Made by a program: the position numbers and the translations under genes. Shown here piece after piece: positions 1 to 64,000 of a stretch of 64,000 nucleotides of DNA. The stretch comes from a virus (lineage: Duplodnaviria; Caudoviricetes). The stretch lies in the IMG/VR virus record IMGVR_UViG_3300031994_000020; one strand, given 5' to 3'. The notes beneath the pieces are model-generated. The model had not been told where the DNA came from and made no database searches. It saw only the letters and a program-made list of their open reading frames with translations. Position 1 is the first letter of the stretch. The number at the start of each line of letters is the position of its first letter.

Positions 1-1
1 C

Positions 2-1186
2 AAATGTCGTAAGACAATGGCGGCAGACACTAACTTTTATACCTATAAAGATGGAACGAAATGCGAATTATGCAAAGCATGCTTAACTATGCACATAAAT
101 AATTAGGAGCCGGAGACATTTCTTTGGCTTTTGGAAAAATTTGATGTTCCTTGGATTCCATCAGAATAGAATGTATTAAGAGATAGAGCTTATCAAAAAG
201 ACCCCCATAAGATGACCGGTATGTCTGTCTTTGGTAAGTATTTGTCTAAAATGAAATTAAAACAATAGAACAAATATACTTAGGCAGATACTGAAAGGCT
301 AAAAGCGGAAGCTGAAGAAAAAGCTAAAAAATATGGTATGCCTGATGAACAAGCGCAAGCTCAATTAGAAGAAATGAAAACTGCTTATGAAAATGGAGAA
401 ATTTCAGAAGCTCAATATAAAACATATGCAGAACAAAATGCACCAGAGCCAACACCCGAACCTGCGGCGGCTCCTCCTTCTGATGGATATGAGTATCCGG
501 TAAATTCTCCCTTTGAGGAAGTACCCATTGTAGATGTAGGTGCGGATCTTACTGATGAAGATAAAATTTACTTGGCTATGAAATAGGGAAGACTTTATAA
601 AGCATATGAATGGGTTGCGCTTGAGCAATTATATAAAGAGTTTATGGATTCATTTGATATTCAAGGTGCAGCAAGAATCGACACTCTTAAAATGATATGT
701 AAAACAAGTTTAAAAATGAATCAAGCAATAGATTGCGGGGACGTCGATTCGTACCAGAAGTTATCTAGAGTATATGATGCCATGATGAAATCCGCAAAAT
801 TCACAGAAGCTCAAAATAAAGAAGGTAAATCTGATTTTGTTGACTCTGTTGGTGAATTAGTTGCTTATTGTGAAAAGAATGGTGGACAAATTCCTAAACA
901 TGAAATTAAAGCTCCTTATGATATTGTTGATAAAATTATAAATGATTTAAAAGAATATAATAAGACTTTAATATATGAAGATAAATCATTAGCGGAAGAA
1001 ATTGAACAATATTTAAAGAATAAAGAAATTGCTGAGAATATGAAGAGAGATAGAGAAGCTGCACGAGAAAAAGGTCAAGATGAAGTTGAATTAACTGATG
1101 AAGATTATGAAAATTTTAAAAAAGCAATAGCAGAAGATAAAGAAAAAGATCAACAACTTGAAGCGGGAGGTGCTGATGAAGAATGA
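2..1186 (+). CDS. Putative terminase small subunit (5' truncated; N-terminal Cys cluster); 5 in-frame TAG read as Trp
   Basis: One frame from base 2 to TGA 1184-1186, with TAG at 104, 167, 266, 281, 584 and no TAA/TGA. Joins ORFs 338 and 644. ATGA overlap with terminase large gene. Function inferred from position. Confidence 0.6.
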
Positions 1187-2922
1187 GTTTACAAAATTTA
1201 TTAGACCTCTCAGAATCAAGATCAGTTAAACAAGGTCTTTCTGAAGAAAGATTAAAAGAACAAATTCCTCATTTGAGGAAATTAATCTCTTTTTATAGAG
1301 AATATCCTGATTATCTTGTTGATTTTATGAAAGGTCCAGATAGTACTTTTCAATTTTATTTTTATCAAAGAATATTTTTAAGAGTGGTAATGCGACATAG
1401 ATATGTTTATGCAACCTTCCCTCGTGCTTATAGTAAATCATTTTTAAGTATGATGGTTTTGATGCTTAGATGTATTCTTTATCCTAATAGTCAATTATTC
1501 GTAACGACGGGCGGAAAAGAGCAAGCTGCAAGTATCACAATAGCTAAGATAGAGGAGATATGTAAGCTGATTCCCGCACTTAATAATGAAATAAATTAGA
1601 ACCGCGGTGTTTCTAAAAAATCTAAAGATGATGTAAAATATGTATTTAAAAACGGTTCTTCTATTGATATACTTGCGGCAAGACAATCTTCCAGAGGTCA
1701 ACGTAGAACAGGTGGCCTTATGGAGGAATGCGTGCTTATAGACGGTGATATACTTAATGAAGTTATAATTCCTACTACAAACGTAGATAGATTACTACCG
1801 GATGGAAGTAGACATAAAGAAGAAAATGTAAATAAATCTCAAATATATATTACAACGGCGGGATAGAAAAATAGTTTTGCATATGATAAACTTGTGGAAC
1901 TTTTAGTCCAGAGTGTAATTGATCCAAATGAGGTTATGGTAATAGGTGGAACTTATGAGACACCAGTAACTGAAGGACTATTAGATGAGTCTTTTGTTGA
2001 TCAACTTAAAATACAAGGTACTTATAATGATGAATCTTTTGATCGTGAATATAGATCAATCTGGTCTGGTGATGTAGAAAATGCTTTTTATTCAGCAGAA
2101 AAATTTGATAAACATAGAGTATTATTACAGCCAGAGTATGAATATAGCGGAAGGTCCTCTAAATCAGCCTACTATGTAATTGGCGTAGACGTTGGTCGTA
2201 TTGGATGTACGACAGAGGCTTGTGTATTTAAATCAACACCTCAACCACAAGGTTCAGATCTTAAGACTCTTGTTAATATTTATACTTACGAATCAGAAGA
2301 TTTTGAAACACAAGCAGTTAATTTAAAAAAATTATATTATAAATACAAGGCGCGGGTGCTCTCTATAGACGCCAATGGTCTAGGTATTGGTCTCGTTGAT
2401 TTTATGACTAAAGCTCAAGTAGATCCAGAGACTGGTGATGATTTACCTCCATTTGGAGTTGAAGGCGGTACTTCAGAAGACGCTTCAGAGCTTTATAAAA
2501 ATATAAAAGGGTATGGAGTTGAAGAAAATGCCATGTATTTAATTAAAGCAAATGCTCCTATAAATACAGAAGCTTATTCTTATGCTCAAACACAAATGTC
2601 AAGCGGAAAGGTAAAGTTTCTTATTGATGAACAAGCTGCAAAGACTAAATTAATGAGTCAAAAACAAGGACAGACATTAAATGCAGATCAAAGAAATGAA
2701 TATCTTAAACCTTTCGTTTTAACTTCAATATTAAGAGAACAAATGTTAAATTTGGTACAGGATAATGAAGGTGTTAATATTATTTTAAAGCAAAATAATA
2801 AAAGTATTAGAAAGGATAAATTTTCTGCTTTTATTTATGGTTTGTATTATATAAAACAAGAGGAAGATAAAAAGAGAAAGAGAAAGAAAAGAGATATAAG
2901 TCAAATGTTATTTTTTAGTTAA
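1183..2922 (+). CDS. terL: Terminase large subunit (579 aa; TAG at 1597, 1864)
   Basis: Walker-A-like FPRAYSKSF, RGQRRTGGLMEE (Walker B region), YITTAG[TAG]K motif III, nuclease VIGVDVGR and KDKFSA. Fragments 1183 and 1894 are in one frame separated only by TAG. Confidence 0.9.
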
Positions 2923-2923
2923 C

Positions 2924-2970
2924 TTGGGCAGTGAAAATTAAGAGAAGTAAGATTAAATTGATATACAGTA
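2924..2970 (+). promoter_or_regulatory. Candidate late-promoter motif copy
   Basis: TTGGGCAG-N6-TTAA-N16-TTGATATAcagTA; matches 7 other intergenic copies. Confidence 0.5.
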
Positions 2971-2985
2971 TAAAGGAGATTGATT

Positions 2986-3342
2986 ATGAGAGCAAGCCGT
3001 GGTGAAATAAAGATAGAAGATATATTAACTGATGCGGGATTGGTATTTAAAGAAGAGTATAGTTTTTCAGATCTCGTATCAAGTAGCGGTAGACCACTCA
3101 GGTTCGATTTTGCAGTCTTTGATGATAATGGAGACTTAGATTTTTTAATTGAGTATCAAGGTATTCAACACTATCAAGCTAAATCTAAATTTGGTGGTTC
3201 AAAAGGTCTTTATAGACAAAAATATAATGATGCTCAAAAAAGACAATATTGTCAACAACATAATATAACTTTAGTTATTATTCCTTATTAGGATGAAAAT
3301 ATACTTGATTACGATTATATTATGAAAGCGGCAGGATATTAA
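2986..3342 (+). CDS. PD-(D/E)XK (Vsr/DUF559-like) endonuclease; TAG at 3289
   Basis: LRFDFAVF..IEYQGIQHY..IIPY[TAG]DE, matching the typical IPYW ending. AAGGAG RBS; TAA at 3340. Confidence 0.75.
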
Positions 3343-3363
3343 TCCTGTCGTTTCCTTTGTTGC

Positions 3364-3392
3364 TTGACAATTTAGAAAAAATATGTTATAAT
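3364..3392 (+). promoter_or_regulatory. SigA/sigma70-type promoter upstream of the portal gene
   Basis: TTGACA-17 nt-TATAAT with extended -10 TG. Confidence 0.8.
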
Positions 3393-3422
3393 AGAAATAT
3401 AGTGAGAAAAGGAGGTGTCTCT

Positions 3423-5042
3423 TTGCGTAATAGAATTAAAGAAAATCATATTAAAGATTTTAGTATGATGACACCAAGAGATACTAACCCTAATCAAACT
3501 TCTGGTTATCAAGGTATCCCCGCCATTGATTTTAATAAGATTAGGATTGGTGCGAAAACCCTTGATGATGCCATTCTTAAATTAGGTGATTTAAAGAAAG
3601 CTAATCCAAAATTAGCAGATAAAGGAACTATATTAAAAGCTATAACTAGTTATGATTTACAAACTATGAGAGAAGCATCTGATTTATTTTATAAAGTAAG
3701 TGGTATTTATTCTCGTATTATTAAATATATGGCTTTTATGTATCGCTATGATTGGATGATTACTCCTTTCGTTAATGATGAATCTGTTAAAAAAGAAAAA
3801 TTATTAAAAGGTTTTCAAAATGCTTTAAATATATTAGATAATTTTGGAGTAAAGAAAGCTTTTGGAGAAATTGCTAAAGAAGTACTTTTACATGGAGCTT
3901 ATTATGGTTATAAGGTAGATACAAAGGAAGGAATGTGTTTACAAGAACTTCCTGTAAATTATTGTAGAAGTAGATTTAATCAAGGCAAAAGACCGGCAGT
4001 TGAGTTCAATATGAAATTTTTTGATGAACAGTTTAGAGATGCCGCACAGAAGATGAAAGTATTAAAAATGTTTCCAGATGAATTTTCAAAAGGTTATATT
4101 TTATATAAGCAAAATAAATTACCTCCTGAATTCATGGGTGATACAAGTGGTTAGTATTTATTAGATCCAAATAAGACTGTTAAATTTAATATTGCGGGAG
4201 ACGATTATCCTCCATTTATAGCAGTCATTCCTTTATTAATTGATTTGGATGAAGCACAGGCATTAGACAGAAAGAAAACTTTACAAAGATTATTAAAGAT
4301 AGTAATTCAGAAGATGCCGTTAGATAAAAATGGTGAATTAATATTTGATGTGGATGAAGCTCAACAGCTTCATAATAATGCTGTTCAGATGTTAAGTAGA
4401 GCAATTGGTGTGGATGTCTTAACTACATTTGCAGATGTTGATGTAGCTAGTATGACCGAAAATCAGGCATCTGCGCAGACAGATGATTTAGCAAGAGTTG
4501 AAAGACAAGTTTTTAATGAAGCTGGTTTATCTCAGATGCAATTTAATACTGATGGAAACATAGCATTAGAGAAGTCTATATTAAATGATGAATCAAGTAT
4601 TTATAATATGATTCTTCAGTTTGAGCAATTTTTAAATGAGCTTATTGAACCATGTAATATGGGTAAGAAAGCTCAATTTAAAGCACAGATATTAAGCACT
4701 ACAATTTATAATTATAAAGAGTTATCTAAATTATATAAAGAACAAATGCAAATTGGTTTCTCAAAGATGTTACCTCAAATTGCACTTGGTCAATCACAAA
4801 GTAGTATTCTTGCTAATGCATACTTTGAAAATGATATACTTGATCTGGTTAATGTATTTATACCTCCTTTAATGAGTTCTACTATGAATGAAAATATTCT
4901 TAATAGAGTTAAAGGCGGGAACCCAGGCACTGGGAGTCCATCAACTAACCCTGGTAAGGAACAGGAAGGCGCCGGCCGCAAGGAATTACCAGATGATCAA
5001 AAGTCAACAAAGACTATTCAAAATAGAGAGAGCATGAATTAA
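3423..5042 (+). CDS. Portal protein (TTG start; TAG at 4152)
   Basis: GGAGGTG RBS. Fragments 3357 and 4245 are in frame (SG[TAG]YLLDP). About 540 aa, located between terminase and protease. Confidence 0.75.
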
Positions 5043-5055
5043 GGAGGATATAGTA

Positions 5056-6405
5056 ATGGCACGAATGAGTGTTGCAACGATAGATTCTCCGGAGTTTATT
5101 AATATTACTTCTATTAATCCTCTTGTTTCTAAATGTGAGATAAAAGTTCTTTATGTTGGAGAGAATAGAAATAGAAGTTTTATTTCAAAAGAAGTAGCTA
5201 CTGAAATGGCGCAGACTTTACCTGGATGTCCTATTGTTGGCTACTATATTGAAAATAAAGAAGACTTTGGAGATCATGGTGACCAAATGATTATTGATGG
5301 TGAGGGTATTAAATTTAATAAGCTCACTAAACCTTATGGATTTGTTGCTCCTGATAGTAAAATATAGTTCCAAAAGTTTGAAGATACTGATGAATTTGGA
5401 AATACTGTTATTAGAGATTATTTAATGACAGAAGGGTATATTTAGACTGGACAGTTTGAAGAGTGTCAGAGAGTTGTCGATAAAGGAAATCCGCAATCTA
5501 TGGAACTTGATGAAAAAACTTTAAAGGGTCATTGGTCAACTGATAATAATCGTGGCATTGATTTTTTCATTATAAATGACGCGATATTTTCTAAGTTATG
5601 TATTTTAGGAGAGGACGTTGAACCTTGTTTTGAAGGTGCTTCAGTTTCTGCTCCTCAAGTAAGTTCTCATTTTAGTATGGATAATGAATTTACAGCTACT
5701 TTATCATCAATGATAAAAGAATTAAAAGAACTTACTTTTGCATTACAAAATAAAGGAGGAAATTCAATGGACGGTATGGAGAACACAACACCAGTAGTTG
5801 AAGAACAAGCTATTGAAGTACCTGCCGCAGAAGAAGTTGCTACAGAAAATTTTTCTGCTGAAGAGGACAAAGTAAGTTCAGAAACTATAGTTGAAAATCA
5901 AAATACAGTAGAAGAGTTCGAAAAGAAAGAAGAACCTGAAGAGGAAAAGAAAGAAGAGTCTGAAGAGAAAGAAAAAGAAGAAGATGATGAAGAGGAAAAA
6001 GAGCCTAAGAAAAATCATTCTTTAGAAGATGAATTTGCTTTAGTAAAAGAAGAACTTGACGAACTCAAGAATCAGTATTCACTTTTACAGAAAGAAAATG
6101 AAGAACTTATTAAGTTTAAGAACTCTGTAGAAGATGAAAAGAAAGATGCTCTTATAAATTCTTTCTATATGCTTTCTGATGAAGACAAGAAAGAAGTTAT
6201 TGAGAATAAATCTAAATATTCTTTAGATGATATTGAAGCTAAACTTTCTGTTATTTGCGTAAGAAAGAGAGTTAATTTCAATAATGAAGAAGTAAAAACA
6301 GAAGAACAGCCTGCTCTTATTTACAATTTTAATGCGGCAGAAGAAGTTGATGCACTTCCTGCATGGTTAAAGGCTGTTGAAGCTAAACGAAACAATAATA
6401 ATTAA
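5056..6405 (+). CDS. Prohead protease-scaffold fusion (449 aa; TAG at 5365, 5443)
   Basis: NRNRSFI, PIVG, EGYI[TAG]TGQ, QSMEL, LCILGEDVEPCFEGA, then an acidic coiled-coil C-terminus. Lies just before the capsid genes. Confidence 0.75.
5767..6405 (+). CDS. Probable nested scaffold protein (internal in-frame start)
   Basis: AAAGGAGG RBS immediately upstream of in-frame ATG 5767; E/K-rich product with no TAG. Confidence 0.55.
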   Translation: MDGMENTTPVVEEQAIEVPAAEEVATENFSAEEDKVSSETIVENQNTVEEFEKKEEPEEEKKEESEEKEKEEDDEEEKEPKKNHSLEDEFALVKEELDELKNQYSLLQKENEELIKFKNSVEDEKKDALINSFYMLSDEDKKEVIENKSKYSLDDIEAKLSVICVRKRVNFNNEEVKTEEQPALIYNFNAAEEVDALPAWLKAVEAKRNNNN

Positions 6406-6418
6406 GGAGGAATATACA

Positions 6419-7114
6419 ATGGCATTTACAAGAGTCGGATATGGTCAAGTAGAGCCTAATCAACTTTCTGCTCAGAAAACTGGCCAGATTTATGCTAGTC
6501 TCCCTCTTGATCCTACTGTTAACGTACTTCAGAATGGTGAATTCATGTATTATGATTATGCCACTGGTAAAGTAACAGCAGATGATTCAACAGGTGTGGC
6601 AGAGCCTATGCTCGTATTCAATGAAATAAAACTTTATGAACCTTTCTGGAGACGTTCTTATAAAGATTTTGCAATGATTAGAGTTGGTGACAATTATGTT
6701 ACTTCTGATCTTGCAGTTAATGGACCTATCGAAGGAAAATATGGTGATGGCGCTTTAACAACAGGCGTTGTTCCTACAGCAAATTACATGGATGATCAGA
6801 CACCTCCAGTACAGCAAACACTCACCGGTCATACTGAGTATCCTTATCGAATGGATGGTATCGCACCTCGTCTTTTCAAGACAAATGTAGGTGATATTTA
6901 TACTACTAATATGGTTAAAGCTGGTGCTAATGTAACTTATGCTGTTGGTGCATTACTTGTACCTGTTAAAAATACAACTTCAAAGACACTTGTTCTTGAA
7001 GAGTTCGTACCTGCTCAGACAGGCGATAAGCCTACTGGTATGGCATGGGTTGTTGTTAAAGTTTACACAATGCCTGATGGTCAAGATGCTGTTAAGCTTC
7101 AGAGAGTACAATAA
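6419..7114 (+). CDS. Capsid decoration/cement-like structural protein
   Basis: AAGGAGG RBS; lies between scaffold and major capsid; no TAG. Confidence 0.6.
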   Translation: MAFTRVGYGQVEPNQLSAQKTGQIYASLPLDPTVNVLQNGEFMYYDYATGKVTADDSTGVAEPMLVFNEIKLYEPFWRRSYKDFAMIRVGDNYVTSDLAVNGPIEGKYGDGALTTGVVPTANYMDDQTPPVQQTLTGHTEYPYRMDGIAPRLFKTNVGDIYTTNMVKAGANVTYAVGALLVPVKNTTSKTLVLEEFVPAQTGDKPTGMAWVVVKVYTMPDGQDAVKLQRVQ

Positions 7115-7133
7115 TTAATAGGAGGATAAGAAA

Positions 7134-8165: not shown

Positions 8166-8190
8166 TAATTAATTGCTTTAAAATAAAATA

Positions 8191-8224
8191 TGGGGAAGAT
8201 GGATCAATCTTCCCCAATATTTTT
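8191..8224 (+). terminator. Rho-independent terminator
   Basis: TGGGGAAGAT/ATCTTCCCCA stem plus T-rich tail. Confidence 0.7.
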
Positions 8225-8251
8225 ATATAAGAGGTAAAAGGAGATAAGTTT

Positions 8252-8857: not shown

Positions 8858-8881
8858 TATTAGAAGAAAGTGAGGTGCCGA

Positions 8882-53800: not shown

Positions 53801-53830
53801 AAGCCCTGATATTTTTATATCAGGGCTATT
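53801..53830 (-). terminator. Terminator after the dUTPase gene
   Basis: AGCCCTGAT/ATCAGGGCT stem with T tract on the - strand. Confidence 0.65.
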
Positions 53831-53832
53831 TT

Positions 53833-54276: not shown

Positions 54277-54278
54277 AA

Positions 54279-54602: not shown

Positions 54603-54621
54603 CCTTTTTATCTCCTTTTTA

Positions 54622-54876: not shown

Positions 54877-54888
54877 ATTTTTTTCCTC

Positions 54889-55266: not shown

Positions 55267-55301
55267 ATTAAAAAACCTTTCCCTTAATTTTATCTATATA
55301 T

Positions 55302-55330
55302 ATTATAGCATATTTTTTATACTAAGTCAA
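55302..55330 (-). promoter_or_regulatory. SigA-type promoter
   Basis: TTGACT-17 nt-TATAAT with extended TG. Confidence 0.75.
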
Positions 55331-57606
55331 GTTATATATCCACGTAATTTTTTACTATGTTTATATCTATCTTCAACTTCGTGTTGCTTACCTATATTAA
55401 ATGCAGACTTATAATCTCCGGTAAGGTATCCCGTGACTCGTCTAAGTCTCTGAATATTAGAGCTGCCACAAGCAGGACAGGAATCATTAATTAATCCAGT
55501 ATAACCACAATCTGCACACATATCATTCGGTACATTTAAAGCAAAATAGGGTATATCTTTATCCATGGCATAATTAACAAGAGTTTCCATAGCTTTGAGA
55601 TTTTGAATTACCGCGCCTTCAAGCTCCACGTAAGTGATGCATCCCGCACTACTATATCCTGTTAATTGAGACTCAATGTCTATCTTTTCTATTGGTGATA
55701 TTTCTTTCCAAACAGGAACATGCATACTGTTAGTAAAATATTCTCTATCACTTACATTAGGTATCTTACCATATTTTTTGCGGAATTTTTCTAAAGCAGT
55801 GTGGCAAAGATTTTCTGCGGGAGTGTAATACACTCCGAAGTTAAGTTTATATTCTTCTTTAAACTCAGCACAGCGATCTTTAAATAACTGCTCTATCTTC
55901 TTTGCTAATTCCATTCCTTTTGTTTCAGTATGGTCACATCCCACCAGAATTTGTAAGCACTCAGCTAAGCCTAACTGTCCTATAGCAAGAGTTCCGTGCT
56001 TAAGTGCTGATCTAATGCCTTCTTCAGGCACATATCCTGCCATAGTTCCATTCTCATACATGAATTTAGCTGATGCGGGATCTTGATTACATATATATTC
56101 AAAACGCTCAATGAGCATATCTTTTGCATCATTTATTGCATCATCAAGAAGTTTCATAAAATCATCTATTATATTATAAGATGATTCCCAAAACATTAAT
56201 TTATTACCATTTTTATCATATGCATACTCTTTATGATCTGTAAATAATGCTTCCATTGCTATTGTTGGAAGAATAATTGTAACTGGACAGATATTTCCAC
56301 GTCCATCTTTGAGCTGACCGAACCCGTTTATATCCCAACCATTCGCAGTTCTACAACCCATGGTGCTAAAGTATGTGCGCGGATCATCTGGATCGTATCC
56401 CGCATTACCGCTCCAATCGCAATTCGCATAATTAGGATAAAGACGCTTAGCAGTAGATTCAAGTGCCAATTGATAAAGGTCGTAATTCGGATCTCCAGGT
56501 TTGCGATTTACTCCTTTCATCATTTGGAATATACCACAAGGGAATATAGGAGTTTTATGAAATTTACCTACTCCTTTAATGCTACCTCTAAGAAGCGCTT
56601 CTGTAACCATGCGACCCTCAGGAAGAGTACATGTTCCATAATTGATCGAGGTAAAGGGGAGCTGATTCCCGCTTCGTGATTGTAAGGTGTTAAGATTGTG
56701 ATACATACCCTCGACTGCTTGCTGCGTTTCTTTGATTGTCATATCCATAGCATATTGATATGCTTTTTCAAATGTTTTATAACCTTTATCGTCAATCGGG
56801 GTTTCTGAAGTAAACACACCTTCATATTTATCAGTATTTATTTCTAAAATATATTTACAACCATCTTTCCAATGTTTATAAAAACTTTTTCTTACATATG
56901 GAACCATTGTCCAATCTAGATGAGTCGCAGAAACGCCTCCAAATTGCTGCAGAGACTGGAGCTGAAAGATTACAGCGACTAACTGAAAAGCAGTATTAAT
57001 ACTATTTGCGGGGCGTACATCTGTCTGCCGCGTATTAAACCCTTTTGCAAGTAAATCATCAAAAGGTACACTAAGGCAATTATGCATACCAATAGCATAG
57101 CTATCGAGATCATGAATATAGATCTCATTATTCACATGTCTAGCTTTTGATTTCTCTGACATGCAGTTATCAAGAGCAAACTCTTTCATAAGCACTGCAT
57201 CAGCTTCGCCTTTTCGACCACCAAAACTATGTTCATCAACATTTGCATTCTGGTTCTGTACATTACTAGCCTGGAGCTTTTCTTTAATAACCGACATCAT
57301 ATGGCTATTCCATTTGCGCTGTTTATCGCGGTCATGGCGATATTCAATGTATGCGGTGGCCACGTCGCGTCTTTTCGTTGACATAAGACCATGTTCTACT
57401 AATGATTGTATATCATCAATAGTTAATTCATTTGGTTGCCCTTCCATATATCCTTCAATATAGTTTGCTATATTTTGGGCTTTTTCTTCTGCGTATGGAG
57501 TTATTTTTCCATCAACCGCAATAAATGCTTTAAGAACAGCATTCTTAATTTTTTCTGAATTAAATGGTTCTCTAATACCATCACGTTTTATTATAAATAA
57601 ATCCAT
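55327..57606 (-). CDS. nrdD: Anaerobic (class III) ribonucleoside-triphosphate reductase
   Basis: ATP cone, IYIHDLD, MGCRT, TPAENL, CxxC..CPxC, RVTGYL glycyl-radical motif. Confidence 0.95.
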   Translation of the reverse strand: MDLFIIKRDGIREPFNSEKIKNAVLKAFIAVDGKITPYAEEKAQNIANYIEGYMEGQPNELTIDDIQSLVEHGLMSTKRRDVATAYIEYRHDRDKQRKWNSHMMSVIKEKLQASNVQNQNANVDEHSFGGRKGEADAVLMKEFALDNCMSEKSKARHVNNEIYIHDLDSYAIGMHNCLSVPFDDLLAKGFNTRQTDVRPANSINTAFQLVAVIFQLQSLQQFGGVSATHLDWTMVPYVRKSFYKHWKDGCKYILEINTDKYEGVFTSETPIDDKGYKTFEKAYQYAMDMTIKETQQAVEGMYHNLNTLQSRSGNQLPFTSINYGTCTLPEGRMVTEALLRGSIKGVGKFHKTPIFPCGIFQMMKGVNRKPGDPNYDLYQLALESTAKRLYPNYANCDWSGNAGYDPDDPRTYFSTMGCRTANGWDINGFGQLKDGRGNICPVTIILPTIAMEALFTDHKEYAYDKNGNKLMFWESSYNIIDDFMKLLDDAINDAKDMLIERFEYICNQDPASAKFMYENGTMAGYVPEEGIRSALKHGTLAIGQLGLAECLQILVGCDHTETKGMELAKKIEQLFKDRCAEFKEEYKLNFGVYYTPAENLCHTALEKFRKKYGKIPNVSDREYFTNSMHVPVWKEISPIEKIDIESQLTGYSSAGCITYVELEGAVIQNLKAMETLVNYAMDKDIPYFALNVPNDMCADCGYTGLINDSCPACGSSNIQRLRRVTGYLTGDYKSAFNIGKQHEVEDRYKHSKKLRGYIT

Positions 57607-57675
57607 TGGTATTTACCTCCCTAATTATTATTATTTTAAGGTTTGTAAATATATTTTACTTTTATACAAGATATA

Positions 57676-58179
57676 TTAATTAAATTCGCCCGTTGTATTA
57701 TAACTAGTACATGTTATCCCATAGTCTTTACCTGTATCCCATGGGGTAGTAATCAATGGACAAACAATAGGATCAGGATTAGAAGGAACTGTAATTATAT
57801 GCGCGGGAGCTGTAAGACTCGACTCTTCTTTAAGCTCTTTATATTTATTTAAATACCAATCAGATTTCTTTAAATCTTCTTCACCATTTTTATCTGCCGC
57901 GCGATATCTGTATTTCCAAGCATTGCAAAGGCAGAAGTTCTGAACTGCTTCCTTACCAAATACTAAAATCATTTCGTCTATACATTCCATCCCGCCTTCA
58001 CGATTATAATGCTTAGGATGGTTTACATTTTCTTTAGCCAATTTTTTATTCTCCTTTGGTATTTCTGTTTTTAACATTTCTAATGTATCATTAAACTTTT
58101 GTTTGTACTCTTCTGGCAACAATGTTATTTTCCAATCTGGATCATCATCATCTATAAAATTTACAGTATTAGTATTCAT
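57676..58179 (-). CDS. DUF3310 (SaV-like) protein
   Basis: NVNHPKHY..ECID..NAWKY.YR..KNGEEDLKK..WY. Confidence 0.8.
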   Translation of the reverse strand: MNTNTVNFIDDDDPDWKITLLPEEYKQKFNDTLEMLKTEIPKENKKLAKENVNHPKHYNREGGMECIDEMILVFGKEAVQNFCLCNAWKYRYRAADKNGEEDLKKSDWYLNKYKELKEESSLTAPAHIITVPSNPDPIVCPLITTPWDTGKDYGITCTSYNTTGEFN

Positions 58180-58234
58180 ATTACTCTCCTTGTGCGGCGA
58201 CCCAGCTCAGTGCATCACTGAGCTGGCTTCCCGC

Positions 58235-61200
58235 TTATTCATCATAATCTTCTTCCAATGCGCCGGTAGCTGTAACTCTCTCATGTTGAAGTTTAATTTC
58301 ATCTCCAACTATATCAATTATTTTATAAAGTTGATGAGTCATTGTTGCTTGATAAGTCTTACCGACAAACTGATCATCGCGTCTGTATCCAGTAACCATT
58401 AACATTGTACCTCTTTTAAACCAGCTCTTTTCCAAAACCTTTTTAGTTCCATCAGGTTGTACTTGACTTACTTGACGTTTAAACATTGCATAATAATCTT
58501 TAGTAAATTTAACCGCTACTACACCAGATGTTGTTAAAAGAGATACTATATGATGATTATCATCCTTTGCTATTACAGTTCCTGCAATTCTATATAATTT
58601 ATAAATAGGAATCTGTACGCCACCTCTTTTTATAAAATAATCTACTTCATTAGATTTTAATTCATTAAAATCTGCTAAATCATATTTTTTATTATCAATA
58701 TTTATTAATTCATGCGGTCCATGGTAGAAACATAGTGAGTCCATTTCCCAGTGGGACTGGGTCCCCGCCGCATATTTTTCCCATGTTTCCATAAACAGCA
58801 TATCATTTAACTTCATTAATGTTTCATTTTGATTTTCTTTAAGCCATTCTCTTGCTTTATCCATAATTAACTGATACTTATTATCCCAAACTTTACAAGG
58901 AATGAACATATTTCCATTTTCATCAAAAGAAATCTCATCTATCATTTCAGTTAAATGCTTTTCTAAAAATTTGTATCCTACATCATTTATTACATAATTT
59001 GTAAGATTTCTTTTACTTATTGCTTTAAGATATTTATTAAAGTTAAAAACTCTAATTTGTAATTCTAATTCTTTAGGAATTAAATTATGTTGTACTAATC
59101 CATTAAAATTCTGCAAAGTTAATTTTTTCTTAGGCTCGCATACTTTAGATATATAATATGCCATTATTTCTTTTCTACTATGCAATATTTCTTCTACCTC
59201 ATCAAAAGCACCAGCTTTGATTAAATTAAACATTGCTGTCTTTGTTAAAGGACATCTTATCATAAAATCTTTAATTCCTTTATATGGTCTCCCGCCCTTT
59301 ATCTTTTCTATTGTTTCTGTGTTTATATTGCTTAATGCTTTAAGACCATACAATATACGATTATTCTCAATATCTGGTTTAAATCCATAATCAGACTCAT
59401 TTATATTTACAAGAGATACATTAATGCCTTTTGAAGTTATATCTCCAATAGCCTTTGCTAATTTTGCATAATCTGTACCTTTTTCTTTTTTCTCTACATC
59501 AAAATCGTCTTCTTCTTCAAGACTGCCGCTATTTACTATCAAACATGCAGTATCCCAATATATAGGATCCCAATGAGTTGCAAGATATGCGGTCTGATAC
59601 CCAATGAATGAGTATGCAAGTGCATGAATCACACTAAAAGAGTAACCCATCTGAGGACCAATTCCGCAGTTCCAAATATATTTTCCAAGTACGGGAGATG
59701 TTGCTTGTTCCAATACTTGTTTCTTTAATTCAGGGATTTTATTCATTTGCTTTTTACCGACTATTTTTCTTGCGGTATTGGCATCTTTTAATGTAAATCC
59801 ACATATATTTGGATCCATTAACATTTTCATCATTTGCTCTTGGCTTGGTGGAACGCCATAAGAAGATAAAAAGTAAGGTTCAATAACTTTCATTTCTTCT
59901 TTTGTCAAACCTGCTAAAGACATTTCACTATACCATAAACTAATGTTATTCTTAAATCTTATATACTTCTCCATAGGAGTTTCAGCACCTTTTTCTGAAG
60001 TCATAAGACGCATCAAACCATTGGCATCCGCTAATTCTAACATAGTTCCTGGTTTAATTTTCTTTGCCGCCTGACTACCTATATCACTATCAAATTGAAA
60101 GATATTCAAAATATTTCCTTCTTGAATATTTGTCCATACATCTTTATCTTCAATATCTAATACATCTGGATGGAAATATTTATTATAAACTTCTCTTAAA
60201 GATAAATTATCTTCTATTTCACCATTCTCTTGTAAAAACTTTATACACTGTGTTATCTTATCTTGTACTTCAGTTAAGAGAAAATCATATTTTGTCATTC
60301 CCGCAGCTTCAGCCATGTGCAGATCATACTGAGTTATTATATCCCCACTCGGTGTCTTCATAAAACAACCAAACTCATATGGATCTTCATCAAACATAAT
60401 TACACCTGATGCGTGACTTCCGCGACGGCTAATAAGTCCTTCAATACCTTGCATTATTTCCAATAATCCAGGATATTGATTCACCTCATAAATGAACATT
60501 TGAACAGGCTCTCTACCTTTTTCTTTATTTCCATTTATGACTTCATCAAGACTCCAAAGAAAACCTCTTTCACTTGGTACTAAACTTGATAAATACTGTG
60601 CTATATCATTATCAATTCCATTAGGATATTCTTCACTTCTATATCCGCGGCAAGCGGTTTGAATCGTAGATTTTGTTGTTTCAGTTCCAAAAGTTGCTAC
60701 AAGAGTACATCCTAAATTTTTACGAGATATATCATCTATATCTTCTTTAAAATTCTTTCCACGCTCTTCTTTTATTTTTTGAATGATAAGCGGGCGCTTT
60801 GATGGACACAAATCTAAGTCAATATCGCCAAGCTCGGTTCTGTCTTTATTAAGATAACGCCAGAATGGTAAGTCCCACTTTATAGGATCCAACTGAGTAA
60901 TCCCAAGAAGATAATGATTCAGACCAGAGCAACTTGAGCCACGTCCCGCACCTACCATACTTCCGCATTCCCAAAACATATCAATATAATGTTGAAGCGT
61001 GATAGGATAAGAAAACATATTAGTTCCCAATTTCTCACCTATTGTTTTCTTTATATCAGCTTCTTCTTCAAGTCGAGAAAGATATTCATCTGTTCCAAGA
61101 TTCTTTTCTCTTAATTTTTCAATACATTTGTTTACCCAATATCTTTCATATATATCATCAGAATCAAACATACTATTTAATATTGGATAATCATTATGTG

Positions 61201-62191
61201 CTGGATCTCCTTCACGTCCTGCTATCATTCCTTTATGTTTTGGATAATTTTCCACTTCAACACTAGGAATAACTTGTGCATGAGTCAAATCATAAAATTT
61301 TATTTTATCATAAATCTCCATACTATTCTTGCACATTTTTTCATATAAATCAACAATAGAAGGAGTTAAATTCTTTTTAATATCTTCTTCATCCTGAAGA
61401 TAAGCATATTCATAAAAATCATCAACTTCTCGTTCTCCACCCTTACTATTAAGGTATGCTTTATGAACATATCTATCTTCTTTTGTAAGATAATGAGCAT
61501 CTGAGCCAATTACCATTTTAACGCCAAAAACAACAGATAACTCTGCTATCTTTTTATTTACTATTATTTGTTCGCGGGAGGCACCTGGTGCTACTTCAAA
61601 ATAAAAGTCATCACCAAAAACTTCTTTACACCAAAGTACAAAATTTATTATCTGCTGCTTTTTCTGTAAAGAAGTTTCATTATTTCTATCGCCCATCTTC
61701 CGCGCTAATTCCATCTCAAGAACACAGGAACTTAATTCACCACCTATACATGCGGTTGTCGCTATTAAATGACCAGGATTCTTGTTTATTATTCTTTCAA
61801 GATCAGACTTTAATGTAGGTACTCTTTCAAGTCCTCTATCATAATAAGAATTCATCCAAGCTAAAGAAGATAACTCTCTTAACTGACGGTGCCCTTCGCG
61901 ATCTCTAGCTATTAAAATAAAATGAAAATATTTTTGACCAGTTTCTCTCGTATCTGTCAAATATATTTCATTTCCTAATGCTATTTTAAATTCTGGATTC
62001 TCTTCTCTTATTTTCTTTGCTAATATATTTACTTCTATAGAACTAGCTAAACATTCATGATCTGTAATACTAATTCCCGCAAGACCTATATCAATTGCTC
62101 TTTGAATCAGCTTCTCGGGACGATTGATGCTATCGAGAAGTCTTATATTACTATAATGGCTGTGAGAATGGACTTCAAACCGATTAGACAT
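58235..62191 (-). CDS. dnaE: DNA polymerase III alpha subunit (C family)
   Basis: PHP domain (HSHSHYS, ITDHE, SDAHY), GRGS, DIDLD, HASG, KYDFL, YSFSVIH. About 17 Trp, all TGG. Confidence 0.95.
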   Translation of the reverse strand: MSNRFEVHSHSHYSNIRLLDSINRPEKLIQRAIDIGLAGISITDHECLASSIEVNILAKKIREENPEFKIALGNEIYLTDTRETGQKYFHFILIARDREGHRQLRELSSLAWMNSYYDRGLERVPTLKSDLERIINKNPGHLIATTACIGGELSSCVLEMELARKMGDRNNETSLQKKQQIINFVLWCKEVFGDDFYFEVAPGASREQIIVNKKIAELSVVFGVKMVIGSDAHYLTKEDRYVHKAYLNSKGGEREVDDFYEYAYLQDEEDIKKNLTPSIVDLYEKMCKNSMEIYDKIKFYDLTHAQVIPSVEVENYPKHKGMIAGREGDPAHNDYPILNSMFDSDDIYERYWVNKCIEKLREKNLGTDEYLSRLEEEADIKKTIGEKLGTNMFSYPITLQHYIDMFWECGSMVGAGRGSSCSGLNHYLLGITQLDPIKWDLPFWRYLNKDRTELGDIDLDLCPSKRPLIIQKIKEERGKNFKEDIDDISRKNLGCTLVATFGTETTKSTIQTACRGYRSEEYPNGIDNDIAQYLSSLVPSERGFLWSLDEVINGNKEKGREPVQMFIYEVNQYPGLLEIMQGIEGLISRRGSHASGVIMFDEDPYEFGCFMKTPSGDIITQYDLHMAEAAGMTKYDFLLTEVQDKITQCIKFLQENGEIEDNLSLREVYNKYFHPDVLDIEDKDVWTNIQEGNILNIFQFDSDIGSQAAKKIKPGTMLELADANGLMRLMTSEKGAETPMEKYIRFKNNISLWYSEMSLAGLTKEEMKVIEPYFLSSYGVPPSQEQMMKMLMDPNICGFTLKDANTARKIVGKKQMNKIPELKKQVLEQATSPVLGKYIWNCGIGPQMGYSFSVIHALAYSFIGYQTAYLATHWDPIYWDTACLIVNSGSLEEEDDFDVEKKEKGTDYAKLAKAIGDITSKGINVSLVNINESDYGFKPDIENNRILYGLKALSNINTETIEKIKGGRPYKGIKDFMIRCPLTKTAMFNLIKAGAFDEVEEILHSRKEIMAYYISKVCEPKKKLTLQNFNGLVQHNLIPKELELQIRVFNFNKYLKAISKRNLTNYVINDVGYKFLEKHLTEMIDEISFDENGNMFIPCKVWDNKYQLIMDKAREWLKENQNETLMKLNDMLFMETWEKYAAGTQSHWEMDSLCFYHGPHELINIDNKKYDLADFNELKSNEVDYFIKRGGVQIPIYKLYRIAGTVIAKDDNHHIVSLLTTSGVVAVKFTKDYYAMFKRQVSQVQPDGTKKVLEKSWFKRGTMLMVTGYRRDDQFVGKTYQATMTHQLYKIIDIVGDEIKLQHERVTATGALEEDYDE

Positions 62192-62223
62192 ATTTTCACC
62201 TCATAATTTTATTTACTATATAT

Positions 62224-62252
62224 ATTATATCATATTTTTTAATAAAAGTCAA
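62224..62252 (-). promoter_or_regulatory. SigA-type promoter for the polymerase gene
   Basis: TTGACT-17 nt-TATAAT with extended TG. Confidence 0.75.
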
Positions 62253-62264
62253 GCGAAAGATTAT

Positions 62265-62732
62265 TCACCTTCCGCTTATGGGATATTCTAATTCTTTACA
62301 ATTAAAAAATTCTTGCAATGCCCATCTCTCACTGCAAAGATTATTTGGTGTTTCATATATCATAAGAACAATAGTAGGTTCTTCATCATCAAAAGGTCTA
62401 GCAAATTTATTAGCGCAATATTCAAATGCTTTTAAAGTTTTTTCTTTATTTACCAATTTATCGAGTAGCTGTCTATATTCAACCATAGTAGGACAGTAAG
62501 GAGCATTAATTTTACTTTCACATGGACAAATATGAGTTCCATATCGTTGAACTATAAGTGGCTCATACCGAAGCCCGCATACTATTCCTCTTTTGTCTAT
62601 ATAATATTCTTTTCCTTGCGGTGGTCGGTACCAGGCTGGATCAGAGACACAAACTGAAACAGGTATGAGATTAGGAGTGAAATTCCGAATCTGATAGAAA
62701 TAGCTGGTCTTTATTTTTATCATTATATTCAT
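62265..62732 (-). CDS. Hypothetical protein
   Basis: Intact ORF. Confidence 0.6.
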   Translation of the reverse strand: MNIMIKIKTSYFYQIRNFTPNLIPVSVCVSDPAWYRPPQGKEYYIDKRGIVCGLRYEPLIVQRYGTHICPCESKINAPYCPTMVEYRQLLDKLVNKEKTLKAFEYCANKFARPFDDEEPTIVLMIYETPNNLCSERWALQEFFNCKELEYPISGR

Positions 62733-62835
62733 TTATCACTTTCTTTAAAATTTTTTCTGATATCATTTGATAATTTCTTTTATTAAACCAATAGTATTCG
62801 GTCTGTCTTCTACTGGTTCAAAAATAGAGGTTATT

Positions 62836-63105
62836 TCAATTTTCTTCAAGTAATTCCTCCCAATGATAATCTCCGCAATCTTCAATTCTCCAATCATCTA
62901 CAATAATATCACTACATTCTTTAATATCTTCCTTATAACCATCAAGTCGATCAGTTTCTTCATCGGTTAATTCTTCATCATTAACTTCTTTTCTTAAAAG
63001 AGTTTTAAAATCTTTTTCTTCTTCTTCTGTAAAATTAATTTCTCCTTCTCTATGCCCATAACGAAGATATCCACGAATATAATCCATATACATAAAAATT
63101 TTCAT
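62836..63105 (-). CDS. Acidic hypothetical protein
   Basis: Intact ORF; ATGA overlap. Confidence 0.65.
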   Translation of the reverse strand: MKIFMYMDYIRGYLRYGHREGEINFTEEEEKDFKTLLRKEVNDEELTDEETDRLDGYKEDIKECSDIIVDDWRIEDCGDYHWEELLEEN

Positions 63106-63326
63106 ATTATTGTCTCCTCTGTATCTATAGCTGCTTGTATATCTAAACTGTCTCCAGAATCAATATCTTCTATTTCACAAAAAGGTTTATATTCAAATAA
63201 TTGATTTTTAAATTTGAACACTGTTTTACTTTTTCCAAAATCCCCTCCCCATTCAGAACCACTTAAAAAAATTTTTAATTTAGTTCCATCAGGAAGTTCT
63301 TTTATTCTTTCTCTTGTTATTCTCAT
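63102..63326 (-). CDS. Hypothetical protein
   Basis: GAGG RBS before MRITRERIK. Confidence 0.6.
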   Translation of the reverse strand: MRITRERIKELPDGTKLKIFLSGSEWGGDFGKSKTVFKFKNQLFEYKPFCEIEDIDSGDSLDIQAAIDTEETII

Positions 63327-63327
63327 T

Positions 63328-63552
63328 TTAATTACCTCTTTTCTTCCAAGGGTTAACACTTTGCTGGCAGTATTCATGTAGATATTCTAACATTTTATCT
63401 TCCTCGGGGAAGAAAAGATCTATCTGCTTTGTTGCTGCAAGCCAACCAAAAAAGTTTGACATTAACTGACCAAATCTCAAATCTGGAAATGATTCTTTGT
63501 GTACTTTACATAATGTTGCATAAAAATCGTCTAATCTATTAGGATCTCTCAC
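63328..63552 (-). CDS. Conserved phage hypothetical protein (MRDPNR..PDLRFGQL)
   Basis: Recognisable small phage protein pattern. Confidence 0.7.
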   Translation of the reverse strand: MRDPNRLDDFYATLCKVHKESFPDLRFGQLMSNFFGWLAATKQIDLFFPEEDKMLEYLHEYCQQSVNPWKKRGN

Positions 63553-63725
63553 TCTTCCATCTCCTTTACTTCAACTATTTCATATTTAACTCCAGGCTCA
63601 TTTGAACTATATACTTTAATACCTTCGTCTATTTCAGTTAAAAAAATATATGCAGTTAGTAATATTCCAAATAATGTCCCTACTAAAAAGATTACTATTG
63701 ATAATATAATTGATTCTATAGCCAT
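63549..63725 (-). CDS. Small membrane protein (58 aa)
   Basis: MAIESIILSIVIFLVGTLFGILLTAYIFL; GAGGTG RBS; GTGA overlap. Confidence 0.55.
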   Translation of the reverse strand: MAIESIILSIVIFLVGTLFGILLTAYIFLTEIDEGIKVYSSNEPGVKYEIVEVKEMEE

Positions 63726-63735
63726 TTTATTTTCT

Positions 63736-63999
63736 TCACCTCATTAGAACTAGCTTCTGTGATGCTCTAGTCGCAGCTGTGTATAACCATCGTTTATGTT
63801 CTTCTTTATCAAACGGGAATGATTCTTCTAGTACCAAAACCTTATCCCACTCAGAGCCTTGAGCTGCGTGGCATGTTAACGCGTACCCATATGTAATTTG
63901 TCTAGGTAATATATCTCCAATTTTATTTATTAATCTACCTATTTGATAAGATACTCTCCAATCTACACAAGGTTTTTCCTCTAATAAGAAATCTTTATC
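63736..63999 (-). CDS. SF1B (RecD/Dda-like) helicase C-terminus, truncated by the window edge
   Basis: YGYALTCHAAQGSEWDKV..RWLYTAATRA (motifs V and VI). Confidence 0.85.
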   Translation of the reverse strand, partial: DKDFLLEEKPCVDWRVSYQIGRLINKIGDILPRQITYGYALTCHAAQGSEWDKVLVLEESFPFDKEEHKRWLYTAATRASQKLVLMR

Positions 64000-64000
64000 A

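What the first reader, a model, noticed from the sequence alone, without database searches (positions are those of the whole stretch)
1..64000. Decoding machinery is missing here; two testable mechanisms
I found no tRNA, aminoacyl-tRNA synthetase, release factor or deaminase in the window. TAG flanks show no common motif or hairpin, arguing against site-specific recoding signals. Option A: tRNA-Trp with a CUA anticodon, one change from CCA. The E. coli Trp-derived amber suppressor Su7 is known to insert Gln, so clean Trp insertion may need a phage TrpRS or special identity elements. Option B: A-to-I editing of UAG to UIG, read as UGG, like stop-restoring editing in filamentous fungi; this would specifically yield Trp.
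Basis: inference. Interest (0 to 1): 0.75.

Follow-up and report, generated by a model that had tools for sequence, protein, structure and literature searches.

The report
Spare-anticodon tRNA reads TAG as tryptophan

Summary
Observation confirmed. The 64-kb window has no tRNA or other Rfam RNA. The whole 146-kb phage has no TrpRS, GluRS/GlnRS-type synthetase, release factor or cytidine/TadA-type deaminase. The 123 in-frame TAGs carry no motif or hairpin.

TAG means tryptophan. At the window's TAG sites, 80 related phages have TGG in 681 of 1001 aligned codons, against 0.45% elsewhere. CAA/CAG appear 3 times. TGG (0.52%) plus TAG (0.76%) in late genes equals the TGG share (1.28%) of the TAG-free early genes. 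In six internal repeats, TAG and TGG alternate in the same three columns.

The decoder lies outside the window, at genome position 10262-10354. It is a 93-nt tRNA(CUA), 9 nt downstream of tRNA-Trp(CCA), with a Trp-type acceptor stem and G73. It carries an extra arm whose 7-nt loop, GUCCAAA, copies the Trp anticodon loop. The same design with a UCA anticodon occurs in about 50 TGA=Trp-type phage contigs, none of which encodes a TrpRS. A version with a Gln-like loop occurs in most long-arm CUA tRNAs.

Option A is supported and option B (editing) is not. That the spare arm serves host TrpRS is an inference.

This scan had already reached the same reading on other windows of this genome.

The parts
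17..52540 (+). Late (virion and lysis-side) gene block read with TAG as a sense codon: 32 ORFs, 22 of them with 1-30 in-frame TAGs, 123 in all. All ORFs end in TAA or TGA.
   Evidence: ORFs merge only under TAG read-through; table 4 does not help. (TGG 84 + TAG 123 of 16,259 codons = 1.28%). (terminase, portal, tail proteins).
1183..2922 (+). Terminase large subunit with TAG at 1597-1599 (residue 139) and 1864-1866 (residue 228).
   Evidence: phrog_2, terminase; relatives carry TGG at 67/80 and 70/80 loci and TGA at 12 and 9. One search confirms the coordinates.
3357..5042 (+). Portal protein with one TAG (residue 266).
   Evidence: phrog_2739. TGG in 64 and TGA in 2 of 66 relatives at that site.
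15202..23595 (+). Tape-measure-like protein, 2797 aa, 22 TAG and 13 TGG.
23706..29138 (+). 1810-aa protein of unknown family with 30 TAG and only 5 TGG. This is the heaviest user of the recoded codon and implies very efficient suppression.
   Evidence: No Pfam family.
38666..41002 (+). Repeat protein in which all 8 TAGs fall in the three Trp columns of six tandem units. The other 9 cells of those columns are TGG.
   Evidence: (translation with X at TAG), read by eye. This evidence needs no database.
52757..62732 (-). TAG-free replication and nucleotide-metabolism block: glycosyltransferase, NrdD, DUF3310, DNA polymerase III alpha. TGG is 1.28% of 2739 codons and TAG is 0.

Best explanation
The phage reads UAG as tryptophan with its own suppressor tRNA, which lies outside the window at genome C1:10262-10354. 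That is about 44.9 kb beyond the window's end, on the strand of the early genes and inside a cluster of 23 tRNA genes.

The tRNA has a CUA anticodon in a normal 5-bp/7-nt anticodon arm and a Trp-type acceptor stem (G2-C71, G3-C70, G5-C68) with discriminator G73. Its T arm is identical to that of the tRNA-Trp(CCA) gene 9 nt upstream. In the variable-arm position it has a second hairpin, with a 5-bp core stem and a 7-nt loop GUCCAAA. That loop matches the Trp anticodon loop CUCCAAA at six of its seven positions.

Inferred: host TrpRS needs C34-C35-A36 plus G73. It charges this tRNA by reading the spare CCA loop and the acceptor end, while the ribosome uses the CUA arm. No phage synthetase, release factor or editing enzyme is involved.

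Early genes avoid TAG. Late genes spell about 59% of their tryptophans as TAG, so they can only be translated in full once the suppressor is present.
For: TAG = Trp:
- relatives have TGG at 681 and TGA at 77 of 1001 codons aligned to the window's TAGs, against a 0.45% TGG background. CAA+CAG appear 3 times and GAA+GAG 5 times.
- TGG is the plurality codon at 13 of 22 sites covered by at least 5 relatives.
- TGG is also the commonest partner in the distal late genes (13/32 and 19/46).
- against three standard-code phages, W 7, F 4, Y 3 and Q 2 of 34.
- the TGG + TAG share in late genes equals the TGG share of early genes.
- TAG and TGG interchange in repeat columns.

The tRNA:
- RF00005 score 54.2 bits, above the gathering score of 29.
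- 77/93 identical, without gaps, to a tRNA(UCA) of another phage. The core is 56/72 identical to the phage's own tRNA-Trp(CCA).

The spare arm is under selection:
- UCCAAA is invariant in 33/33 distinct arms. The stem is 80% paired against 52% in shuffles, with 70 double-change cells against 25 (0/500 shuffles reach either value).
- RNAalifold independently predicts five helices.
- a second, diverged CUA copy in a 144.6-kb metagenome contig has a different 6-bp stem and the loop CUCCAAA.

Host enzyme:
- no TrpRS in this genome, nor in any of 50 phage records carrying the design (22 of them at least 90% complete).
- (PMC9976931): bacterial Trp identity rests on G73, the anticodon C34C35A36 and acceptor pairs. 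The E. coli amber tRNA-Trp is mischarged with Gln.

Parallel case:
- 72 of 90 long-arm CUA tRNAs in IMG/VR carry a spare loop YUYUGA (Gln-like). This includes the phAss-1 type, whose TAGs align best with Q.
Against: No aminoacylation, proteomic or RNA data exist, so the amino acid is inferred from alignments and codon statistics only. Which hairpin stacks as the anticodon arm is a three-dimensional question that sequence cannot settle. That TrpRS binds the spare loop is an inference. UCA versions of tRNA-Trp are tolerated by many TrpRS enzymes without such an arm, so the arm could have another role, such as stability, processing, modification enzymes or EF-Tu tuning. U35 could let a host GlnRS or GluRS mischarge part of the pool. 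How 30 UAGs in one gene escape host RF1 is unexplained. The genome record is about 93% complete, so a missing gene cannot be fully excluded.
Confidence: 0.85

Rival explanations
1. Option B: UAG codons in late mRNAs are edited A-to-I to UIG and read as UGG by ordinary tRNA-Trp(CCA).
For: It would give Trp specifically. TAG and TGG differ by the one base that editing changes. Nothing in the DNA alone can exclude it.
Against: No cytidine/TadA-type deaminase family in the genome. The ADAR search was uninformative. No shared motif or hairpin at 123 sites, whereas known bacterial TadA mRNA editing needs a tRNA-Arg-like loop context (my own knowledge). About 200 sites genome-wide would need near-complete editing. 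A dedicated tRNA(CUA) of Trp type sits in the genome and would be left without a purpose.
Confidence: 0.02
2. The tRNA(CUA) is the decoder but is charged wholly or largely with another amino acid, so the proteins carry substitutions at Trp positions. Candidates are Gln, as with E. coli Su7, or Glu or Lys.
For: U35 is a GlnRS determinant, and the E. coli amber tRNA-Trp is charged with Gln (PMC9976931). Plant tRNA-Trp(CUA) is charged by LysRS (same review). Relatives in the same phage clade read TAG as Gln or apparently as Glu.
Against: TAG sits at positions that are TGG in 68% of aligned relatives, including invariant Trp sites of terminase and portal. Gln and Glu codons are almost never found there (8 of 1001). 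TAG + TGG restores a normal Trp content exactly. 123 non-conservative replacements of Trp would be very costly. The spare CCA loop is conserved. Most Firmicutes lack GlnRS (my own knowledge; the host is not identified).
Confidence: 0.06
3. UAG is read by near-cognate pairing of the ordinary tRNA-Trp(CCA), as the short-stem tRNA-Trp reads UGA in some eukaryotes. On this reading the long tRNA is really a tRNA-Trp(CCA) whose true anticodon arm is the CCA hairpin, and the CUA hairpin is a passenger insertion.
For: From the CCA hairpin to the 3' end the molecule looks like a normal tRNA-Trp: a 5-bp stem, the CCA loop, then the four bases GGGT (NGGT across the family) directly before the T arm. Either hairpin could stack under the D arm.
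Against: A C-A mismatch at the middle codon position is a very poor reader. The phage's own tRNA-Trp(CCA) has a normal 5-bp anticodon stem. The first hairpin's loop tracks the recoded stop codon across phages: UCA where TGA aligns to Trp, CUA here and in one more contig. A passenger insertion would not do that.
Confidence: 0.04

Closest known systems
Phage stop-codon recoding with phage-encoded suppressor tRNA: 'code 15' TAG=Gln in crAss-like, Lak and phAss-1 phages, and TGA=Trp in others (Borges et al. preprint 10.1101/2021.08.26.457843; Peters et al. PMC9523058; phAss-1 PMC10607447)
   Same: The recoded codon is concentrated in late and structural genes and absent from early genes. The suppressor tRNA is carried in the phage's tRNA cluster. 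The phage belongs to the same SPbeta/EF1-like clade as phAss-1.
   Different: TAG stands for Trp here, not Gln. The literature I could search reports only TAG=Gln and TGA=Trp for phages. The NCBI taxonomy node for the phAss-1 group is named after code 15, which would mistranslate this phage.
TGA=Trp phages with 'code change' operons of phage TrpRS plus tRNA-Trp(UCA) (AP1 and HF2 pairs, bioRxiv 10.1101/2025.10.30.685624)
   Same: A Trp-type suppressor tRNA with G73 reads a stop codon as Trp.
   Different: No TrpRS in this phage, nor in any of 50 records with the long-arm design. The anticodon is CUA, not UCA. The tRNA carries a spare CCA hairpin that the preprint does not mention ('variable' occurs twice in its text; 'V-arm', 'hairpin' and 'anticodon stem' do not occur).
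E. coli Su7 (supU), the amber suppressor derived from tRNA-Trp
   Same: A tRNA-Trp body with a CUA anticodon.
   Different: Su7 is a point mutant and is mischarged with Gln (PMC9976931). The phage tRNA has 21 extra nucleotides forming a second Trp anticodon-like arm, and the genome's codon usage indicates Trp.
Class II tRNAs with long variable arms (Ser, Leu, bacterial Tyr) and tRNA-Sec
   Same: About 90 nt with a base-paired arm between the anticodon and T arms. ARAGORN labels the UCA relatives 'SeC' and the CUA form 'Pyl' from the anticodon alone.
   Different: The acceptor/T helices are 7/5 bp and the D stem is 4 bp with a 7-nt loop, not the 8/5 with 6-bp D stem of tRNA-Sec. Real tRNA-Sec genes picked up by my pattern in bacteria look different. 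The extra arm has a 7-nt anticodon-like loop rather than the 3-4-nt loop of Ser, Leu and Tyr arms.
Anticodon-arm mimics bound by synthetases in mRNAs (E. coli thrS operator; yeast aaRS-mRNA sites, PMC6542539)
   Same: A hairpin that copies a cognate anticodon loop and is proposed to be read by the synthetase's anticodon-binding domain.
   Different: Those mimics sit in mRNAs and regulate translation. Here the mimic is part of a tRNA and would serve its aminoacylation. The thrS case is from my own knowledge and was not checked here.

Membership tests
Phage stop-codon recoding by a phage-encoded suppressor tRNA | In-frame stop codons of one kind interrupt otherwise intact conserved phage genes | tested here: met
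   terminase, portal and tail genes become whole only with TAG read through. TGA read-through does not help.
Phage stop-codon recoding by a phage-encoded suppressor tRNA | The phage genome encodes a tRNA whose anticodon pairs with that stop codon | tested here: met
   tRNA(CUA) at C1:10262-10354, RF00005 score 54.2 bits.
Phage stop-codon recoding by a phage-encoded suppressor tRNA | Recoded codon biased to late genes and absent from early genes | tested here: met
   123 TAG in 16,259 late codons and 0 in 2739 early codons; genome map.
NCBI genetic code 15 (TAG = Gln) | TAG positions correspond to Gln in homologues | tested here: not met
   CAA+CAG at 3 of 1001 aligned codons, TGG at 681.
tRNA-Trp (bacterial identity set) | Discriminator G73 | tested here: met
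   G73 is invariant in the 21-sequence alignment A1.
tRNA-Trp (bacterial identity set) | Acceptor pairs G2-C71, G3-C70, G4-C69 and G5-C68 (B. subtilis set, PMC9976931) | tested here: inconclusive
   G2-C71, G3-C70 and G5-C68 are present. Position 4-69 is A-U and 1-72 is G-U, as in the phage's own tRNA-Trp(CCA). The second CUA copy and most UCA relatives have the full A1-U72/G2-G5 set.
tRNA-Trp (bacterial identity set) | Anticodon C34 C35 A36 | tested here: not met
   The anticodon is CUA. A CCA triplet in an anticodon-like 7-nt loop is present in the extra arm instead. Whether TrpRS reads it was not testable here.
tRNA-Trp (bacterial identity set) | Is aminoacylated with tryptophan | not testable with these tools
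   Needs an aminoacylation assay or proteomics. It is inferred from TAG/TGG equivalence.
tRNA-Sec | 8/5 (or 9/4) acceptor/T helices, 6-bp D stem, UCA anticodon | tested here: not met
   7/5 helices and a 4-bp D stem. The anticodon here is CUA. Bacterial tRNA-Sec hits have a different body.
tRNA-Pyl / pyrrolysine system | CUA tRNA with a short variable loop, plus a PylRS gene; TAG at Lys-like or special sites | tested here: inconclusive
   The long variable arm and TAG aligning to TGG rather than to Lys-like sites do not fit. No PylRS-specific search was run; the class I synthetase families searched would not detect PylRS, which is class II. ARAGORN's 'Pyl' label comes from the anticodon only.
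mRNA A-to-I editing restoring Trp | An adenosine deaminase gene and a shared structural context at the edited sites | tested here: not met
   (no deaminase family). (no motif or hairpin). Transcript data are not available.

The most novel reading that the evidence does not exclude
Phages have a general trick that I could not find described, for pointing a stop codon at an amino acid whose synthetase insists on the anticodon. They duplicate the anticodon arm, mutate one copy to read the stop codon, and keep the other copy in the variable-arm position as a decoy that the host synthetase reads. The spare loop is CCA for Trp, with UCA or (here) CUA anticodons, and CUG/UUG for Gln. This phage shows that the scheme lets the same stop codon be given a new meaning (TAG = Trp) within a clade whose members read TAG as Gln, apparently as Glu, or as stop.
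Probability: 0.5. Interest if true: 0.92.

Novelty: new variant of a known kind. Interest (0 to 1): 0.8.

Why it matters
TAG = Trp is not among the NCBI genetic-code tables as far as I know, and I did not find it in the phage recoding papers I could search. Gene callers and databases that assume code 15 put Gln at about 200 Trp positions of this phage.

The tRNA gives a concrete, testable answer to an old problem: how to make an amber suppressor that still inserts Trp when TrpRS needs the CCA anticodon. If the spare arm is read by TrpRS, it is a new kind of tRNA identity element. It would also be a ready-made scaffold for genetic-code expansion, because it would uncouple decoding from anticodon-dependent charging.

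The clade also shows several codes among relatives at 67-92% terminase identity: standard, TGA=Trp, TAG=Gln, apparently TAG=Glu, and TAG=Trp. That makes it a natural system for studying how codes switch.

Tried and rejected
- Table 4 (TGA=Trp) does not open the broken genes.
- TAG=Gln is rejected by the alignments.
- A phage TrpRS, GluRS/GlnRS-type enzyme, RF1/RF2 or cytidine/TadA-type deaminase was searched for and not found. The ADAR search had no working control.
- Site-specific recoding signals were not found.
- tRNA-Sec identity of the long-arm tRNAs was rejected on helix lengths. My pattern did pick up genuine bacterial tRNA-Sec genes in Caulobacteraceae and others. This shows that a UCA anticodon plus a long arm is not diagnostic by itself.
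- A search for further CUA + CCA-loop tRNAs found none in IMG/VR and none in 185,579 species genomes. It found one in metagenome contigs.
- I could not fetch that contig's late genes because the record is not held. The 9.4 kb in hand was uninformative about its code.
- The closest terminase relatives (92% identity, 143-144-kb contigs) use the standard code in the head module, so they are not further TAG=Trp phages.
- Literature searches for TAG=Trp in phages, and for tRNAs with two anticodon arms, found nothing relevant.


Full report
**What the window is.** The window is the reverse strand of positions 55212-119211 of a single 146,105-bp phage contig (GC 32.7%, CheckV 93% complete).
- Its + strand (1-52,540) carries the virion module of an SPbeta/EF1/E3-like siphovirus of Firmicutes: large terminase, portal, tape measure and tail proteins.
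- Its - strand (52,757-62,732) carries replication and nucleotide genes: DNA polymerase III alpha, NrdD and a glycosyltransferase.
- Under table 11 the + strand genes are broken. Reading TAG through joins them into ORFs of up to 2797 and 1810 aa. Reading TGA through does not help.

**Check of the observation.** The window contains no tRNA or tmRNA (ARAGORN) and no Rfam family at gathering score. Six-frame profile searches of the whole genome found no TrpRS/TyrRS family, no GluRS/GlnRS family, no RF-1 or PCRF domain, and no dCMP/cytidine or TadA-like deaminase family. All of these searches had working controls. The ADAR family search is uninformative because its control rang nowhere. Other synthetase classes were not searched.

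The 123 in-frame TAGs have no common flanking motif. The highest value is 0.31 bit per position, with the same codon periodicity as around TGG. There is also no extra downstream structure (mean MFE -5.2 against -6.1 kcal/mol for TGG sites).

**Which amino acid TAG stands for.** Four independent lines point to tryptophan.
- Relatives. I fetched 80 IMG/VR relatives by terminase (67-92% identity). The codon aligned to the window's TAG is TGG 681 times and TGA 77 times out of 1001. TTT and TAT come next. CAA+CAG occur 3 times and GAA+GAG 5 times. TGG makes up 0.45% of subject codons at all other aligned positions. TGG is the plurality codon at 13 of the 22 sites covered by at least five relatives. 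In two long standard-code relatives TGG is also the commonest partner in the distal tail genes (13/32 and 19/46). Against three cultured standard-code phages the partners are W 7, F 4, Y 3 and Q 2 of 34.
- Codon budget. Late genes have TGG 0.52% plus TAG 0.76%, which sums to 1.28%. That is exactly the TGG share (1.28%) of the TAG-free early genes. The Gln share is normal in both.
- Internal repeats. In the repeat protein at 38,666-41,002, all 8 TAGs fall in the three Trp columns of six tandem units. The other 9 cells of those columns are TGG.
- Stop usage. All the ORFs as I delimited them end in TAA or TGA.

**Where the decoder is.** The genome carries 23 tRNA genes and a tmRNA gene at C1:6719-20438. 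They lie on the strand of the early genes. One of them, C1:10262-10354 (locus L323:4262-4354), has a CUA anticodon. It lies 9 nt downstream of tRNA-Trp(CCA) and scores 54.2 bits on the Rfam tRNA model, more than its neighbour.
- The acceptor stem differs from that of the neighbouring tRNA-Trp by one base pair.
- The T arm is identical and the discriminator is G73.
- It has G2-C71, G3-C70 and G5-C68. These, with G73 and the CCA anticodon, form the bacterial Trp identity set (review PMC9976931).
- It is 93 nt long because it has a 21-nt arm between the anticodon arm and the T arm: a core stem GAGGU/GCCUC closing the 7-nt loop GUCCAAA. The Trp anticodon loop is CUCCAAA.
- From this second hairpin to the 3' end the molecule reads like an ordinary tRNA-Trp(CCA): a 5-bp stem, the CCA loop, four bases (GGGT) and then the T arm. 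The simplest description is a tRNA-Trp with tandem anticodon arms, the 5' one changed to CUA.

**The spare arm is a selected element, not an accident.** A pattern scan of IMG/VR found the same architecture with a UCA anticodon in at least 27 phage contigs. It found it in at least 22 more in which the UCA anticodon loop is interrupted by an insert of about 340 nt. One of these phages, G006, belongs to this terminase clade. Its TGA codons align to the window's TAG and TGG.
- Across 33 distinct spare arms the loop bases UCCAAA never vary while the stem covaries. 80% of cells are paired against 52% after shuffling. There are 70 double-change cells against 25, and 0 of 500 shuffles reach either value. 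Sliding the partner by one to three columns destroys the signal.
- RNAalifold on 21 full-length sequences independently predicts five helices. 18 of the 26 pairs show compensatory change.
- The window phage's tRNA is 77/93 identical, without gaps, to one UCA member. It is less similar (56/72 in the core) to its own neighbour tRNA-Trp(CCA). It therefore most likely arose from the UCA family by two changes in the anticodon.
- No other CUA version exists in IMG/VR or in 185,579 species genomes. One exists in a 144.6-kb metagenome contig (JAEEGL013603757.1). It has a different, perfectly paired 6-bp spare stem, the loop CUCCAAA and the full A1-U72/G2-G5 acceptor set. I could not obtain that contig's late genes.

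**How it most likely works.**

Shown: TAG is used as a synonym of TGG. A Trp-type tRNA(CUA) is encoded. The phage encodes no TrpRS. None of 50 phage records with the tandem-arm design encodes one either, 22 of them at least 90% complete.

Inferred: host TrpRS charges the tRNA, and the spare CCA loop supplies the anticodon determinants that the CUA arm has lost. This avoids the fate of E. coli Su7, which is charged with Gln.

Support for the inference comes from a parallel family. Of 90 long-arm CUA tRNAs in IMG/VR chosen without regard to the spare loop, 72 have a spare loop YUYUGA, the Gln anticodon-loop motif, and by eye about 7 of the 18 displayed others carry close variants. One of this family is the 91-nt (88 nt as annotated, without CCA) Sup-CTA of phAss-1. 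Its TAGs align best with Q in my own comparison (Q 9, E 2 of 52), as its authors reported. So the triplet in the spare loop follows the amino acid, while the triplet in the first loop follows the stop codon.

Not settled:
- which hairpin stacks under the D arm on the synthetase and on the ribosome;
- whether the arm has another role;
- how 30 UAGs in one gene escape host RF1;
- the host itself.

**Option B and other rivals.** Editing of UAG to UIG has nothing in its favour beyond giving Trp. There is no deaminase family, no structural context at the sites, about 200 sites genome-wide, and a dedicated tRNA that would be superfluous. Charging of the tRNA(CUA) with Gln, Glu or Lys is contradicted by the near absence of those codons at homologous positions and by the exact Trp budget. 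Only proteomics or charging assays can close this. Near-cognate reading by tRNA-Trp(CCA) would need a middle-position mismatch and does not explain why the first loop tracks the stop codon.

**Comparison with what is known.** This is phage stop-codon recoding by a phage suppressor tRNA, a known kind (Borges et al. preprint; Peters et al.; phAss-1 paper). Two things are new relative to the papers I could search: the meaning of the codon (TAG = Trp) and the tandem anticodon-arm architecture. A recent preprint describes TGA=Trp phages that solve the charging problem differently, with their own TrpRS. ARAGORN's labels 'Pyl' and 'SeC' come from the anticodon only. The helix lengths exclude tRNA-Sec, and the long arm and Trp positions argue against tRNA-Pyl, though no PylRS-specific search was run.

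**Relation to earlier notes of this scan.** After I had reached this reading I looked up the scan's notes. Follow-ups on two other windows of the same genome describe the same code and the same 'spare anticodon hairpin' tRNA. One states that TAG=Gln phages carry the design with a Gln loop, which I then tested and confirmed. Notes on other genomes report TAG=Glu in related phages. My alignments show the same signal: relatives' TAG aligns to the window's E 541, Q 107 and D 106 times.

**Verdict.** The finding's observation is correct. Its option A is essentially right, including the suggestion of special identity elements, and its option B is not supported. The underlying biology is unusual and testable.

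Noticed in passing
L024, L029, L031-L034, L037-L062, L066, L071 (IMG/VR relatives, terminase regions): In about 35 related phages the in-frame TAGs align to Glu in this phage (E 541, Q 107, D 106 in total). One relative (L070) shows Q 17, E 4, and about 18 relatives use TGA at Trp sites. The closest relatives use the standard code. So the one terminase clade holds several genetic codes. The TAG~Glu phages carry a 74-79-nt tRNA(CUA) without a long arm.
   Followed up: partly
L125:396-860 and about 21 further loci (L130, L140-L143, L145, L147, L157, L159, L161, L168, L173, L175, L176, L180, L185, L186, L190, L191, L194, L195, L203): The tandem-arm tRNA(UCA) gene is split inside its UCA anticodon loop (after CUUC) by an insert of about 340 nt. 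No Rfam family, including group I introns, matches at E<=0.01.
   Followed up: partly
L323:12416-12763 (genome C1:18416-18763); also L330:649-995: The phage encodes a full-length tmRNA (RF00023, 80.8 bits, tag AKKIVSFPTKVALAA). The second CUA-tRNA contig has one too. A phage that suppresses UAG stops might need extra ribosome rescue; this link is a guess.
   Followed up: no
L330:5829-5899 (-), metagenome contig JAEEGL013603757.1: The second phage with the CUA tandem-arm tRNA also has a 71-nt, AT-rich tRNA with a UCA anticodon and a mismatch in its acceptor stem. It may be a second suppressor or a pseudogene.
   Followed up: no
L439-L441 and L434, L443, L445 (IMG/VR): Other CUA tRNAs with long arms. 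Three look like Ser/Leu-type class II bodies. Three carry a long second arm whose loop reads UGUUAAU-like (a UUA triplet), which hints at further kinds of spare arm.
   Followed up: no
L332-L342, L344, L346-L351, L353-L357 (bacterial genomes): Genuine tRNA-Sec genes of Caulobacteraceae, Acidobacteria and others have variable-arm loops containing UCCAAA(A) and matched my pattern. This is a caution against calling every UCA long-arm tRNA a Trp suppressor. Four hits in MAGs look like the phage type (L331/L343 Coriobacteriia, L345 Treponema bin, L352 Bacilli).
   Followed up: partly
L323:4097-4168 (genome C1:10097-10168): A weak tRNA-like match (RF00005, 36.2 bits) directly upstream of tRNA-Trp(CCA) that ARAGORN does not call.
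   Followed up: no
window 23706-29138 (+): A 1810-aa late protein with no Pfam family that spells 30 of its 35 tryptophans as TAG. This is the most extreme TAG use in the window.
   Followed up: no
genome C1:12230-14071 (+), inside the tRNA cluster: A 613-codon ORF with 13 in-frame TAGs and 1 TGG lies among the tRNA genes on the 'early' strand. TAG use is therefore not strictly confined to the virion module.
   Followed up: no
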